This document shows positions 14,077 through 62,949 of a stretch of DNA of 64,000 nucleotides, piece by piece. Source of the stretch: an uncultured Pseudomonadales bacterium (GTDB lineage: Bacteria; Patescibacteriota; Microgenomatia; UBA1400; PJMF01); the NCBI GenBank assembly GCA_964406075.1, contig CAYOQI010000004.1, positions 57,718 through 121,717 of the forward strand. The letters run 5' to 3'. Numbering within the stretch: the first letter of the stretch is position 1; every line of letters begins with the position of its first letter. Made by a program: the position numbers and the translations under genes. The notes beneath the pieces are model-generated. The model saw only the letters and a program-made list of their open reading frames with translations, was not told the origin of the DNA and did not search any database.

Positions 14077-14133
14077 GTACGTATTTAGTGTACATGAGGA
14101 CTGTGAGGAAGAAAAGAAAGTGTGCCCCCACCG

Positions 14134-14162
14134 GGAACCTGCCTGCCGGCAGGCAGGTCGAA
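14134..14162. repeat. GC-rich perfect palindrome (ggaaCCTGCCTGCCGGCAGGCAGGtcgaa) immediately 3' of tRNA-Arg. A second copy lies at 62365-62397.
   Basis: The 20-nt core CCTGCCTGCCGGCAGGCAGG is self-complementary. It appears twice in the window, both times just downstream of a minus-strand tRNA gene. Confidence 0.6.
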
Positions 14163-14189
14163 ATTTGGATTTAGGGTTTAGGAAATTAG

Positions 14190-14261
14190 TGCCGATACCG
14201 GGAGTCGAACCTGGATTTAAGGTTTAGGAAACCTCCGTTCTATCCATTGAACTATATCGGC
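14190..14261 (-). tRNA. tRNA-Arg (anticodon CCT).
   Basis: Manual fold: acceptor GCCGATA/TATCGGC, D-arm GTTC-AATGGATA-GAAC, anticodon arm GAGGT-TTCCTAA-ACCTT, T-arm CCAGG-TTCGACT-CCCGG (one A-C mismatch). 72 nt, CCA not encoded. Confidence 0.7.
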
Positions 14262-14343
14262 TATGAGTATAAAAAATTGTCATCCATAGGCTGCCTGCCC
14301 GCCTTTGGAGGGATCGCCTTTGGCGGAAACTATGGGAGCAGTG

Positions 14344-14415
14344 TCGGGGTGGAGGGAATTGAACCCTCTGCCTCTCGGTCCCGAACCGAGCGCTCTACCG
14401 ATGAGCCACACCCCG
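14344..14415 (-). tRNA. tRNA-Pro (anticodon CGG).
   Basis: Manual fold: acceptor CGGGGTG/CACCCCG, D-arm GCTC-ATCGGTA-GAGC, anticodon arm CTCGG-TTCGGGA-CCGAG (G37), T-arm GAGGG-TTCAATT-CCCTC. 72 nt. Confidence 0.8.
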
Positions 14416-62321: not shown

Positions 62322-62352
62322 CAAAAAAGCTGACTAAAAGTCAGCTTTTTTT
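62322..62352 (+). terminator. Rho-independent terminator of the Wzy_C-TPR gene.
   Basis: aaaaaagctgactaaaagtcagcttttttta: stem agctgact/agtcagct followed by a T7 tract. Confidence 0.65.
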
Positions 62353-62364
62353 ATGGTGGACCGT

Positions 62365-62397
62365 GGGGGAACCTGCCTGCCGTCAGGCAGGTCGAAC
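62365..62397. repeat. Second copy of the GC-rich palindromic element (gggggaaCCTGCCTGCCGTCAGGCAGGtcgaac), immediately 3' of tRNA-Ala(CGC).
   Basis: Same core as 14134-14162 with one substitution in the loop. Same position and orientation relative to a minus-strand tRNA. Confidence 0.6.
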
Positions 62398-62405
62398 TCT
62401 CACTG

Positions 62406-62476
62406 TGGACTCACGGGGAATTGAACCCCGAACTATGCAATGCGAATGCATCGGTATACCGTTTACCTATGAGCCC
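62406..62476 (-). tRNA. tRNA-Ala (anticodon CGC) with a G3:U70 pair.
   Basis: Manual fold: acceptor GGGCTCA/TGAGTCC (G3:U70), D-arm GGTA-AACGGTA-TACC, anticodon arm ATGCA-TTCGCAT-TGCAT, T-arm CGGGG-TTCAATT-CCCCG. 71 nt. Confidence 0.8.
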
Positions 62477-62518
62477 GAATGCTATGTACTACCACTATAC
62501 GAACGGCCCTCATTTCAA

Positions 62519-62755
62519 TTAAATCAGTCGCTTATTTCTAAAAGCAAATCCTGCTCCCGTTTTTAAATACTTTTCAAATTCTATTGCGAGTTTTTCTGAA
62601 GCAAAAGCGGAGTAGAAAATTAGTTTACATGGGAGAAAGTTTTTTGTTGCCTTAACTCTTCCCGAGCTATGCTCTTTCAAACGAGTTTTCAAATCAGAAG
62701 AATAACCAGTATATATTGTGTTATTTATTAGCTGAAGAAGATATGTGTAATACAC
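62519..62755 (-). CDS. Small GIY-YIG nuclease superfamily protein (UPF0213/YhbQ-like, 78 aa).
   Basis: MYYTYLLQLINNTIYTGYSSDLKTRLKEHSSGR..ATKNFLPCKLIFYSAFASEKLAIEFEKYLK has the GIY..YIG spacing with conserved Arg and Glu, as in YhbQ-type proteins. Confidence 0.6.
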   Translation of the reverse strand: MYYTYLLQLINNTIYTGYSSDLKTRLKEHSSGRVKATKNFLPCKLIFYSAFASEKLAIEFEKYLKTGAGFAFRNKRLI

Positions 62756-62878
62756 TTGAACCTTAAAGTCCTACTTCGCTAAAGCTACGCGGGACACACT
62801 TCGCATGACTTAAAATATCTCTTACTATAAAAAGTGGCCTGCCACACGAAGCTCTGAGTGATAACGAAGAGCGAAGTG

Positions 62879-62949
62879 TGGACCCGAGGGGAATCGAACC
62901 CCTTTCTATTCCATGCCATGGAAGTATACTACCGGTGTACTACGGGCCC
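62879..62949 (-). tRNA. tRNA-Ala (probable anticodon GGC) with a G3:U70 pair.
   Basis: Manual fold: acceptor GGGCCCG/CGGGTCC (G3:U70), D-arm GTAC-ACCGGTA-GTAT, anticodon arm CTTCC-ATGGCAT-GGAAT (one mismatch, A at position 32), T-arm AGGGG-TTCGATT-CCCCT. 71 nt. Confidence 0.6.

What the first reader, a model, noticed from the sequence alone, without database searches (positions are those of the whole stretch)
14134..14162. Recurrent GC-rich perfect palindrome placed immediately 3' of tRNA genes (copies at 14134-14162 and 62365-62397)
In a genome of about 37% GC, the 20-nt self-complementary core CCTGCCTGCCGGCAGGCAGG appears twice. Each copy has the same flanks (ggaacc...tcgaa) and lies 25-30 nt downstream of a minus-strand tRNA gene: tRNA-Arg and tRNA-Ala(CGC).
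- Each copy is embedded in flanks of similar conserved length.
- The outer flanks, cccccaccgg and ccgtggggg, are reverse complements of each other.
- The element has no T-tract, so it is not a canonical intrinsic terminator.

It could be a tRNA 3'-processing or termination signal, a small repeated (REP/MITE-like) element, or a recombination/att site. The CCTGCC/GGCAGG motif also recurs between tRNA-Pro and tRNA-Arg (about 14290-14300).
Basis: seen in the sequence. Interest (0 to 1): 0.5.

Follow-up and report, generated by a model that had tools for sequence, protein, structure and literature searches.

The report
Cross-phylum 20-bp palindrome in tRNA remnants
The two GC-rich hairpins are copies of a 20-base palindromic insertion found with the same sequence in many bacterial phyla; here each sits in the T-loop of a dead, partial copy of the neighbouring tRNA gene, so it is not a tRNA processing or termination signal.

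Summary
CCTGCCTGCCGGCAGGCAGG is exact at 14138-14157. At 62372-62391 it has one loop mismatch. Zero copies are expected by chance.

The shared flanks (GGAA...TCGAA) are not part of the element. They are the two halves of a tRNA T-loop. Each palindrome lies between nucleotides 58 and 59 of a decayed 3' fragment of tRNA-Arg(CCT) or tRNA-Ala, directly behind the intact gene.

The same 20-mer occurs in at least 120 genome loci from Bacteroidota, Patescibacteria, Planctomycetota and other phyla, and in 35 viral contigs, with unrelated flanks. Comparison with uninterrupted copies shows precise 20-bp insertions without target duplication. Orthologous sites are filled in some Flavobacteriaceae and empty in others. 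Some copies lie in frame inside genes such as aroC, gatB, polA and rmlD.

Copies are enriched in partial tRNA duplicates and next to small stand-alone GIY-YIG nuclease genes. One such gene is at 62519-62755.

Best reading: a tiny selfish or templated palindromic insertion that survives in redundant tRNA-gene copies. The insertion enzyme is unknown. I found no description of it in the searchable literature.

The parts
14138..14157 (.). Palindrome copy 1: CCTGCCTGCCGGCAGGCAGG, a perfect 20-bp palindrome.
   Evidence: Exact match with 0 expected by chance. As RNA it folds into an 8-bp stem with a CCGG loop, -13.9 kcal/mol.
14122..14185 (-). Decayed 3' part of a tRNA-Arg(CCT) gene, from the anticodon loop to the discriminator base. 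The palindrome is inserted between T-loop nucleotides A58 and U59 (TTCGA|TTCC).
   Evidence: With the palindrome removed, 44 nt align to positions 30-73 of the adjacent tRNA-Arg. None of 2000 shuffles scores as well.
14189..14261 (-). Intact tRNA-Arg(CCT); CCA is not encoded.
   Evidence: ARAGORN; Rfam tRNA model, 66 bits.
14289..14327 (-). A second, different GC-rich insert of 39 nt: TCCGCCAAAGGCGA followed by TCCCTCCAAAGGCGGGCAGGCAGCC. It lies in the tRNA-Pro/tRNA-Arg spacer. It may sit in the D-loop of a 5' remnant (GCTCCCATAGTT...TATGGATGAC, 14279-14339) whose acceptor strand pairs with TGGGGGC of the 3' remnant.
   Evidence: Sequence reading. The CCTGCCCGCC.TTGGAGG motif recurs in L041 beside a palindrome. 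The 5'-remnant reading is tentative: the alignment as it stands is not significant.
14343..14415 (-). Intact tRNA-Pro(CGG). The order tRNA-Pro(CGG), tRNA-Arg(CCT), T-loop palindrome recurs in L168 and L174.
62372..62391 (.). Palindrome copy 2: CCTGCCTGCCGTCAGGCAGG, with one substitution in the loop.
62354..62404 (-). Decayed 3' part of an older tRNA-Ala gene: CAGTGAGAGTTCGA[palindrome]TTCCCCCACGGTCCACCA. It has a G3:U70-type acceptor strand and an encoded CCA. The palindrome is again at A58|U59.
   Evidence: 19 of 22 nt match tRNA-Ala(GGC), with 0 of 2000 shuffles scoring as well. It matches the 3' end of the orthologous intact tRNA-Ala(CGC) in L187.
62405..62476 (-). Intact tRNA-Ala(CGC), nested between the two halves of the older tRNA-Ala copy.
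62477..62509 (-). 5' part of the older tRNA-Ala copy: GGGCCGTTCGTATAGTGGTAGTACATAGCATTC. It ends in the anticodon loop. Its acceptor strand GGGCCGT pairs with ACGGTCC of the 3' remnant.
   Evidence: Alignment to tRNA-Ala(GGC), 11 of 2000 shuffles scoring as well. Near-identical to the 5' half of the tRNA-Ala(CGC) in L187.
62519..62755 (-). Stand-alone minimal GIY-YIG nuclease gene, 78 aa.
   Evidence: Pfam PF01541, E = 2.5e-14. Homologues at 54-68% identity are named Levybacteria, Roizmanbacteria or Patescibacteria group where a source names them. In three of four sampled loci the homologue lies just downstream of a detected tRNA gene.
62756..62877 (-). Conserved, structured spacer between tRNA-Ala(GGC) and the GIY-YIG gene. 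It is part of the cassette, not of the palindrome.
   Evidence: Five-sequence alignment A1: 25 predicted pairs, 7 with a compensatory change.
62878..62949 (-). Intact tRNA-Ala(GGC), upstream of the GIY-YIG gene.
62323..62351 (.). Canonical bidirectional intrinsic terminator (AAAAAAGCTGAC TTT TAGTCAGCTTTTTT). It serves the + strand TPR gene and the minus-strand tRNA unit.

Best explanation
Both sites are copies of a 20-bp GC-rich palindromic insertion element, (CCTG)2CC|GG(CAGG)2. It occurs with the same sequence in many bacterial phyla and in phage contigs.

**In this window.** Each copy is inserted between nucleotides 58 and 59 of the T-loop of a redundant, decaying 3' fragment of a tRNA gene (tRNA-Arg(CCT), tRNA-Ala). 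Each fragment lies directly behind the functional gene.

**Shown:**
- The element inserts as a precise 20-bp unit without target-site duplication.
- It prefers a purine before and a pyrimidine after the insertion point, often GA|T.
- It recurs at the same positions of tRNA genes: T-loop TTCGA|TTCC, D-loop GGAA|TTGG, the variable loop, and the junction after the acceptor stem.
- It is filled or empty at orthologous sites in related genomes.
- Copies inside protein-coding genes read in frame, as about 7 codons.

**Inferred:**
- It is a selfish or templated insertion acting in trans.
- Hits in functional tRNA genes are purged, so copies accumulate in redundant partial tRNA copies.
- Those partial copies arise by local partial duplication and by small GIY-YIG nuclease cassettes that settle beside tRNA genes. 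One such cassette is still present at 62519-62755.
- By breaking the homology between the duplicate and the live gene, an insertion may stabilise the duplication.
- The inserting enzyme is unknown. The minimal Slx1-like GIY-YIG nuclease is the leading candidate because of its tight physical association. An IS200/RAYT-type single-strand transposase is a second candidate.

It is not a tRNA 3'-processing or termination signal.
For: **Distribution.**
I tallied them from the record titles as about 60 Bacteroidota, 26 Patescibacteria, 11 Planctomycetota and others. The flanks are unrelated and the loop is nearly always CCGG.
- The exact 20-mer is in 35 viral contig stretches.

**Precise insertion against an uninterrupted copy in the same locus.**
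- L044: GGGTTCGA|TTCCCTC, with 23 of 23 flanking nt identical to the live tRNA-Leu.
- L076: GGTGGAA|TTGGTAGAC.
- L067: GCCCGGA|TAGCTC (all three).
- L021: ACGGA|TTGGAC.
- L052: a 98%-identical paralogue of an IS200/RAYT-like gene, where the 20 nt cause a frameshift.

**Polymorphism at an orthologous site.** In the syntenic Flavobacteriaceae locus prs / pseudo-tRNA-Leu / GIY-YIG / tRNA-Leu(CAA), the site GTG|GCGG is filled in L188 and L190 and empty in L189 and L191.

**In-frame copies in genes.** AroC, GatB, the PolA 5'-exonuclease region, RmlD and others. In RmlD the palindrome-coded residues coincide with a 6-residue gap in PDB chain 3sc6.

**The window's fragments are tRNA-derived**.

**Recurrence of the T-loop site.** The pattern TTCGA[palindrome]TTCC was found in 25 metagenome stretches, beside Leu(CAA), Arg(CCT, TCG, GCG) and Glu tRNA genes. 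L168 and L174 have the same tRNA-Pro, tRNA-Arg(CCT), palindrome order as the window.

**GIY-YIG link.**
- 15 of those 25 stretches carry 18 GIY-YIG genes, all within 53 nt of a palindrome.
- In the loci chosen only by the palindrome, 3 of 4 GIY-YIG genes lie within 300 nt of one.
- 4 of 4 Flavobacteriaceae loci chosen only by GIY-YIG homology carry the palindrome or decayed variants in the displaced tRNA-Leu fragment.

**Local duplicates.** 46 of 178 copies have a second copy of a flank within 2 kb, against 19 of 301 random positions.
Against: - No insertion event has been seen directly and no enzyme has been identified.
- Most copies (116 of 120 genome loci) have no GIY-YIG gene within the 8 kb fetched.
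- Four loci holding the closest homologues of the window's own GIY-YIG have no palindrome within 2 kb.
- A pure 20-bp insertion cannot be in frame. The genic copies need 21 bp, so the inserted length is not strictly constant, or second-site changes occurred.
- The tRNA-Pro, tRNA-Arg(CCT), palindrome arrangement is shared by deeply diverged genomes (the M16 peptidase is only 36% identical). Variants with shared mutations persist in Flavobacteriaceae. Both could mean the hairpin is retained for a function rather than being neutral.
- Why the sequence stays identical across phyla is unexplained.
Confidence: 0.6

Rival explanations
1. Functional RNA hairpin. The palindrome is kept because, once transcribed, it forms a very stable stem-loop. 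That stem-loop would protect or delimit the co-transcribed tRNA or GIY-YIG RNA, acting as a barrier to 3' exonucleases, a 5'-UTR stabiliser or a weak terminator. Alternatively it would stop the truncated tRNA piece from misfolding with the live tRNA.
For: - The hairpin is stable: -13.9 kcal/mol for the core, and 10 pairs once the A and U flanks are included.
- It always lies in the same transcription unit as a tRNA, and often a GIY-YIG ORF.
- The arrangement after tRNA-Arg(CCT) recurs in diverged genomes.
- Decayed variants in Flavobacteriaceae keep most of the stem.
Against: - The same 20-mer lies in frame inside essential genes and in unrelated intergenic DNA.
- No U-tract follows it.
- Copy 2 has its own canonical terminator 20 nt further on.
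- The only terminator-like hit at copy 1 does not involve the palindrome, and the number of such hits in the region equals that in shuffles.
- Any GC-rich hairpin would do this job, so identical sequence across phyla is not expected.
Confidence: 0.15
2. Repair scar. The palindrome is not itself mobile. It is filler DNA joined into double-strand breaks made by a nuclease, for example the GIY-YIG enzyme cutting tRNA-gene DNA. A self-complementary 20-mer can anneal with itself into a blunt duplex and be ligated into a break.
For: - The insertions are precise and lack target duplication.
- Flanking direct repeats vary from 0 to 14 nt, as expected from filled-in staggered ends.
- Palindromes cluster very tightly next to GIY-YIG genes, and up to three occur in one pseudo-tRNA (L160, L180).
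- Palindrome sites are enriched for local duplications.
Against: - No source for the 20-mer is known.
- Most copies are far from any GIY-YIG gene.
- Many carrier lineages, notably Patescibacteria, probably lack end-joining. This rests on general knowledge and was not tested here.
- The same codon of an IS200/RAYT-like gene is hit in two unrelated genomes. That points to target choice rather than random breaks.
Confidence: 0.15
3. Attachment-site remnant. The displaced tRNA 3' ends are the attL and attR repeats of an integrase-driven element that has since been lost, and the palindrome was part of its attachment site.
For: Duplicated tRNA 3' ends that start in the T-loop are the classical footprint of integration into tRNA genes (L044 and L166 have 23-25 nt exact repeats).
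Against: - Only 9-27 nt lie between the repeats in the window, and 5-43 nt elsewhere.
- No integrase appeared among protein clusters shared by three or more loci.
- 5' fragments upstream of tRNA genes carry the palindrome just as often (L040, L067, L076, L152, L188-L191).
- The palindrome also occurs far from any tRNA.
Confidence: 0.05
4. Chance match or an assembly or adapter artefact.
For: Most carriers are metagenome-assembled genomes.
Against: - Zero copies are expected by chance in the window.
- The element is present in cultured isolates and complete genomes.
- Mutated and decayed variants exist at orthologous sites.
Confidence: 0.01

Closest known systems
REP / REPIN elements mobilised by RAYT (IS200-like Y1) transposases
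   Same: Short GC-rich palindromes of 20-40 bp, dispersed in many copies. They form hairpins and are thought to be moved in trans by a single-strand DNA transposase, without target duplication.
   Different: - REPs are specific to a species or genus, carry a GTAG or CGTC head, are extragenic and flank their RAYT gene.
- This 20-mer is the same across phyla, has no head motif, occurs inside genes and has no RAYT neighbour in the window.
- In L052 and L018 it interrupts an IS200/RAYT-like gene rather than flanking one.
Rickettsia palindromic elements (RPE)
   Same: [quoted passage not shown]
   Different: RPEs are about 100-150 bp and confined to Rickettsia (own knowledge). This element is 20 bp, adds about 7 codons and spans several phyla.
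Mitochondrial GC clusters, hairpin elements and Neurospora PstI palindromes
   Same: - GC-rich mobile palindromes in AT-rich genomes.
- Some flank tRNA genes and were once read as processing signals (Neurospora, own knowledge).
- Some sit inside coding regions (the yeast mobile GC-cluster family is the subject of PMC4478555, known to me from its listed title and abstract start only; translational bypass of such inserts is own knowledge).
   Different: Those are organellar, lineage-specific and longer (30-55 bp). The element here is bacterial or phage-borne and is tied to tRNA-gene remnants and GIY-YIG genes.
Free-standing GIY-YIG homing endonucleases in tRNA gene clusters (phage T4 SegB)
   Same: A GIY-YIG gene lodged among tRNA genes that promotes inheritance of its own region (PMC2330249, abstract).
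   Different: - The proteins here are 78-90 aa: a bare catalytic domain of the prokaryotic Slx1-like type, with no DNA-binding domain (PMC1564403).
- Their cleavage activity is untested.
- As far as I know, SegB loci are not reported to carry palindrome-marked tRNA remnants.
tRNA 3'-end duplications at integrase attachment sites
   Same: An intact tRNA gene followed by a displaced copy of its 3' end that starts in the T-loop.
   Different: No island or integrase lies between the repeats. 5' remnants occur as well. The displaced copy is interrupted by the palindrome.

Membership tests
REP/REPIN-RAYT | Conserved GTAG or CGTC tetranucleotide at one end of the palindrome | tested here: not met
   The core starts with CCTG and the flanks vary. 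The only bias is a purine at -1 and a pyrimidine at +1.
REP/REPIN-RAYT | Extragenic location | tested here: not met
   In-frame copies lie inside AroC, GatB, PolA, RmlD and other genes.
REP/REPIN-RAYT | Cognate RAYT gene in the genome, flanked by the repeats | tested here: inconclusive
   There is no RAYT homologue in the 64-kb window, but the rest of the genome is unseen. In L052 and L018 the palindrome interrupts an IS200/RAYT-like gene instead of flanking it.
MITE | Terminal inverted repeats around an internal sequence, plus a target-site duplication of fixed length | tested here: not met
   The element is only the 20-bp palindrome. The empty/filled pairs L044, L076, L067, L021 and L052 show no duplication.
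Intrinsic (rho-independent) terminator | GC-rich hairpin directly followed by a T-tract | tested here: not met
   Neither copy has a T-tract. The scan reports only a weak site outside the palindrome at copy 1, and the separate terminator at 62323-62351.
Known structured RNA family (Rfam) | Match to a curated covariance model | tested here: not met
   Only the four tRNA genes reach gathering score. Nothing covers the palindrome even at E <= 10.
Integrase att site in a tRNA gene | Direct repeats of the tRNA 3' end bracketing an island that encodes an integrase | tested here: not met
   The repeats are present, but only 9-27 nt separate them in the window.
tRNA intron (group I or archaeal bulge-helix-bulge type) | Insert within an otherwise functional tRNA gene, removable by a ribozyme fold or a bulge-helix-bulge motif | tested here: not met
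   The host sequences in the window are truncated, diverged fragments. No intron model matches. The one full-length case is a phage tRNA-Met with the palindrome in its variable loop (L145).
Free-standing GIY-YIG homing endonuclease cassette (for the neighbouring ORF) | GIY-YIG catalytic domain | tested here: met
   PF01541, E = 2.5e-14, for the window ORF and for three others.
Free-standing GIY-YIG homing endonuclease cassette (for the neighbouring ORF) | Site-specific cleavage of the allele that lacks the gene, followed by co-conversion | not testable with these tools
   This needs biochemistry or genetic crosses. The proteins have no recognisable DNA-binding domain (78-90 aa).
Rickettsia palindromic element-like selfish DNA | Palindromic insert tolerated in frame within conserved proteins | tested here: met
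   Size and taxonomic range differ greatly from RPEs, so this is a resemblance, not membership.

The most novel reading that the evidence does not exclude
The 20-mer marks a DNA-insertion system that has not been recognised before: a hairpin 'nano-transposon' with no coding capacity. It would be placed precisely and without target duplication at tRNA-gene loops and a few other hot spots, by a trans-acting minimal nuclease (the Slx1-like stand-alone GIY-YIG, or an IS200/RAYT-type enzyme). It would operate in the same form in Bacteroidota, Patescibacteria, Planctomycetota and their phages, and would shape the turnover of tRNA genes.
Probability: 0.3. Interest if true: 0.85.

Novelty: new variant of a known kind. 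Interest (0 to 1): 0.72.

Why it matters
**If the reading holds**
- A 20-bp sequence with no coding capacity has spread with the same sequence through several bacterial phyla and their phages.
- It inserts with base-pair precision and lands at the same positions of tRNA genes.
- That implies a conserved, unidentified insertion activity of unusual simplicity.
- It would also explain a class of small insertions in conserved proteins, read as PACRQAG or LPAGRQV.

**Practical consequences now**
- The palindrome flags dead tRNA-gene pieces that annotation tools do not report.
- It warns against reading such hairpins as tRNA processing or termination signals.
- It ties the abundant, uncharacterised 80-aa GIY-YIG proteins of Bacteroidota and Patescibacteria to tRNA-gene turnover, which gives a testable lead to their function.

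Tried and rejected
**Searches that found nothing**
- Rfam, at gathering threshold and at E <= 10: nothing but tRNAs.
- Literature searches for the exact sequence, its half-sites and the encoded peptides: no relevant hits.
- Literature searches combining palindromes, tRNA genes, GIY-YIG, Patescibacteria and Bacteroidetes: no description of this element. The paper on group I introns in Patescibacteria tRNA genes (PMC13011429) mentions neither palindromes nor GIY-YIG.
- Plasmid and cultured-phage collections: no full-length exact copy among the hits listed.

**Ideas tested and dropped**
- A cis-encoded enzyme. All-against-all clustering of ORFs from 156 loci gave no family shared widely among them. 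The small GIY-YIG genes stood out for their position next to the palindrome (4 loci including the window); the clusters shared by more loci were mostly phage and housekeeping proteins.
- A RAYT partner. There is none in the window. Elsewhere the palindrome interrupts such genes.
- A fixed target-site duplication. The flanking direct repeats seen by eye vary from 0 to 14 nt, and the empty/filled pairs show none.
- A simple tandem duplication with the palindrome at the junction. The palindrome lies inside the second copy, not at its edge (L044).
- Other 14-mers shared across loci. None were found beyond the palindrome and its loop variants.

**Look-ups that failed**
- The window's own nucleoside diphosphate kinase is not on record (one search was a server error), so no close relative of this locus could be compared.
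- Two GIY-YIG proteins were not on record.
Full report
**1. The observation**

The 20-mer CCTGCCTGCCGGCAGGCAGG is at 14138-14157 as an exact match. A second copy at 62372-62391 differs by one base, in the loop (CCGT). A search allowing three mismatches finds only these two in the 64-kb window, and no shuffle gives any.

Both copies share the longer unit GGAACCTGCCTGCCG[G/T]CAGGCAGGTCGAA. Both lie downstream of minus-strand tRNA genes: tRNA-Arg(CCT) 14189-14261 and tRNA-Ala(CGC) 62405-62476.

The spacing is not constant. The shared unit ends 26 nt from tRNA-Arg and 8 nt from tRNA-Ala. Rfam recognises nothing here except the tRNAs. As RNA the core folds into an 8-bp stem with a 4-nt loop at -13.9 kcal/mol.

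**2. What the flanks are**

Read on the minus strand, the sequence after tRNA-Arg is:

CTAA TTTCCTAAACCCTAAATCCAAAT TTCGA [palindrome] TTCCCGGTGGGGGCA

With the palindrome removed, 44 nt align to positions 30-73 of the adjacent tRNA-Arg, from the anticodon loop to the discriminator base. None of 2000 shuffles scores as well.

After tRNA-Ala(CGC) the sequence is:

CAGTGAGAG TTCGA [palindrome] TTCCCCCACGGTCCACCA

This matches the 3' end of tRNA-Ala(GGC) at 19 of 22 positions (0 of 2000 shuffles) and carries a G3:U70-type acceptor strand.

So the 'conserved flanks' are the two halves of a T-loop. Each palindrome sits between A58 and U59 of a dead partial tRNA copy.

At the second site, a matching 5' half (GGGCCGTTCGTATAGTGGTAGTACATAGCATTC, 62477-62509) lies directly upstream of the intact tRNA-Ala(CGC). 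Its acceptor strand pairs with that of the 3' remnant. Both halves match the intact tRNA-Ala(CGC) of locus L187, which shares with the window a tRNA-Ala(CGC), a GIY-YIG gene and a convergent TPR-protein gene (27% identical). The live gene is therefore nested between the halves of an older copy.

A comparable 5' remnant may exist upstream of tRNA-Arg. It would be interrupted by a different 39-nt GC-rich insert at 14289-14327. That reading is tentative.

**3. The palindrome elsewhere**

A scan of one genome per species for ACCTGCCTG-N4-CAGGCAGGT hit its 120-locus limit. I tallied the hits from the record titles as about 60 Bacteroidota, 26 Patescibacteria, 11 Planctomycetota, 7 labelled Gammaproteobacteria, 4 Ignavibacteria and a dozen others. 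They include cultured isolates and complete genomes.

The flanks are unrelated. The loop is CCGG in most copies, and the variants mostly differ from it by a single base. The exact 20-mer is also present in 35 viral contig stretches, up to six times in one 29-kb contig.

No full-length exact copy appeared among the hits listed from the plasmid and cultured-phage collections.

**4. Evidence that it is an insertion**

Several loci hold the same sequence with and without the palindrome:

| Locus | Site | Comparison |
|---|---|---|
| L044 | GGGTTCGA\|TTCCCTC | 23 nt identical to the live tRNA-Leu |
| L076 | GGTGGAA\|TTGGTAGAC | two tandem 5' fragments against the live gene |
| L067 | GCCCGGA\|TAGCTC | 5' fragment against live tRNA-Thr |
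| L021 | ACGGA\|TTGGAC | intergenic duplicate |
| L052 | CTGGA\|TGTG | second copy of an IS200/RAYT-like gene, 98% identical to the intact copy; frameshifted by the 20 nt |

In every case the difference is exactly the 20-mer, with no target duplication.

In four syntenic Flavobacteriaceae loci (prs, pseudo-tRNA-Leu, GIY-YIG, tRNA-Leu(CAA)), the site GTG|GCGG is filled in two genera and empty in two. A second site carries decayed variants that share mutations, so that insertion is old.

In the viral set, where my query did not fix the flanks, the base before the insert is a purine in 36 of 44 copies and the base after is a pyrimidine in 33 of 44.

**5. Copies inside genes**

The palindrome has no stop codon in any frame. 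In at least eight long ORFs it is read as PACRQAG or LPAGRQ(V), with conserved protein sequence on both sides. These include chorismate synthase, GatB, the PolA 5'-exonuclease region and RmlD.

In RmlD these residues coincide with a 6-residue gap in PDB chain 3sc6. In AroC the query's loop is 3 residues longer than in the best PDB match.

Staying in frame needs 21 nt rather than 20, so the genic survivors are a selected subset or carry a one-base adjustment.

**6. The link to tRNA remnants**

About 6% of copies in the genome set (8 of 132) and 7% in the viral set (3 of 44) lie in tRNA-like sequence. These counts exclude matches that are merely palindrome to palindrome. Nearly all are in partial copies beside an intact gene.

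The exception is a phage tRNA-Met that carries the palindrome in its variable loop and is still predicted as a 92-nt tRNA (L145).

A metagenome scan for the T-loop form TTCGA[palindrome]TTCC gave 25 stretches. They lie next to Leu(CAA), Arg(CCT), Arg(TCG), Arg(GCG) and Glu tRNA genes. Notable cases:
- L168 and L174 repeat the window's order tRNA-Pro(CGG), tRNA-Arg(CCT), palindrome. L174 is only distantly related (M16 peptidase 36% identical).
- L171 and L172 hold five tandem 3' fragments, each with palindrome and terminator, then a GIY-YIG gene followed by a sixth fragment.
- L160 and L180 hold a pseudo-tRNA-Leu with three palindromes, in the D-loop, the T-loop and the acceptor strand.
- L044 shows the same nested layout as the window's second site.

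Palindrome flanks have a second local copy within 2 kb in 46 of 178 cases, against 19 of 301 random positions.

**7. The link to GIY-YIG genes**

The ORF at 62519-62755 is a 78-aa GIY-YIG domain.

- In the T-loop set, 15 of 25 stretches carry 18 such genes, all within 53 nt of a palindrome. The usual order is intact tRNA, ORF, short tRNA piece ending in TTCGA, palindrome, TTCC plus the tRNA 3' end, then a terminator.
- In the loci chosen only by the palindrome, three of four GIY-YIG genes are within 300 nt of one.
- Flavobacteriaceae loci chosen only by GIY-YIG homology all carry the palindrome or its remnants in the displaced tRNA-Leu 5' fragment.
- In contrast, four loci holding the closest homologues of the window's own protein place it beside a tRNA gene (in three of the four) but hold no palindrome within 2 kb.

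So the association is strong but not obligatory.

Prokaryotic Slx1-like GIY-YIG proteins are described as minimal stand-alone domains, sometimes fused to the tRNA methyltransferase TrmH (PMC1564403). T4 SegB is a precedent for a GIY-YIG homing nuclease inside a tRNA gene cluster (PMC2330249, abstract listed).

**8. Interpretation**

The data fit a very small selfish or templated insertion. It lands at preferred sites, notably the single-stranded loops of tRNA genes, and is seen where it does no harm. Those places are redundant tRNA pieces left by partial duplication or by GIY-YIG cassettes, dead transposase genes, intergenic DNA and tolerant protein loops.

The insertion chemistry, the enzyme and any benefit are inferred, not shown. 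One possible benefit is breaking the homology that would otherwise delete a duplication.

The rivals, in order of weight:
- **Functional RNA hairpin.** Weakened by genic copies, by the lack of a U-tract, and by the separate terminator after copy 2.
- **Repair scar at nuclease cuts.** Not excluded.
- **att remnant.** Poorly supported.
- **Artefact.** Poorly supported.

**9. Comparison with known elements, and novelty**

It behaves like REP elements, Rickettsia palindromic elements and mitochondrial GC clusters. It fails the defining tests of REP (head motif, extragenic location, RAYT pairing), MITE (terminal repeats, target duplication) and intrinsic terminators.

No paper in the searchable library mentions the sequence, its peptides or the association with GIY-YIG and tRNA genes. 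I rate it a new variant of a known kind, with a realistic chance that the mechanism is new.

**10. Limits**

- The organism of the window is inferred only from protein relatives (Microgenomates-like Patescibacteria).
- No close relative of the window could be fetched.
- No expression or biochemical data exist.

Noticed in passing
window 62756-62877 (minus strand); L181 1813-1945, L185 1724-1990, L186 1855-1995: A conserved, apparently structured spacer lies between the tRNA 3' end and the start of the GIY-YIG ORF (CACACTTCGCTC...GAGCTTCGCGTGGCAAGCCAC...GCGAAGTGTGTG...). It includes a long-range helix. The alignment gives 25 predicted pairs, 7 with compensatory changes. No Rfam family matches. 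It could be an RNA processing or regulatory element of the cassette.
   Followed up: partly
window 14289-14327: A second kind of GC-rich insert lies in the tRNA-Pro/tRNA-Arg spacer: a TCCGCC-AAA-GGCGA hairpin followed by TCCCTCCAAAGGCGGGCAGGCAGCC. The latter motif recurs beside a palindrome in a Liptonbacteria contig (L041:772).
   Followed up: partly
L008, L010, L014, L019, L023, L030, L041, L044, L109, L116, L119; also L016, L018, L027, L045, L100: Other short perfect or near-perfect GC palindromes recur across unrelated genomes. TCCGCC-N3-4-GGCGGA occurs 16 times in 12 loci (12 of them with a 4-nt loop; TCCGCCAGCTGGCGGA itself occurs three times). CCCGATAGCTATCGGG occurs 6 times in 5 loci. 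The 20-mer may be one member of a wider class.
   Followed up: partly
L052 3474-4057 and L018 3340-3583: The palindrome interrupts an IS200/RAYT-like (HUH Y1) transposase gene at the same codon (W[L/I]D|VF, DNA ...GA|TGT...) in a Flavobacteriaceae and a Chitinophagales genome. L052 also holds an intact paralogue that is 98% identical in the flanks of the insertion.
   Followed up: partly
L145 2239-2330 (viral contig); related L122 8616: A phage-borne tRNA-Met(CAT) carries the palindrome in its variable loop and is still predicted as an intact 92-nt tRNA. The hairpin may be tolerated as a long variable arm.
   Followed up: no
window 14189-14261, 14343-14415, 62405-62476, 62878-62949 versus 62354-62356: None of the four intact tRNA genes encodes CCA, whereas the dead tRNA-Ala 3' remnant ends in CCA. 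The orthologous live gene in L187 also ends in CCA. This suggests the present tRNA-Ala(CGC) has a different origin from the one it replaced.
   Followed up: partly
window 38000-60000: G+C rises from about 0.39 to about 0.45. The stretch is full of diverged internal repeats (families D1-D20). The reading frames here were not examined.
   Followed up: no
L171 1665-2612 and L172 (same array): An intact tRNA-Leu(CAA) is followed by five tandem units of about 108 nt. Each unit is a tRNA 3' fragment with palindrome and terminator. Then comes a GIY-YIG gene and a sixth fragment. This looks like a record of repeated events at one tRNA gene.
   Followed up: partly
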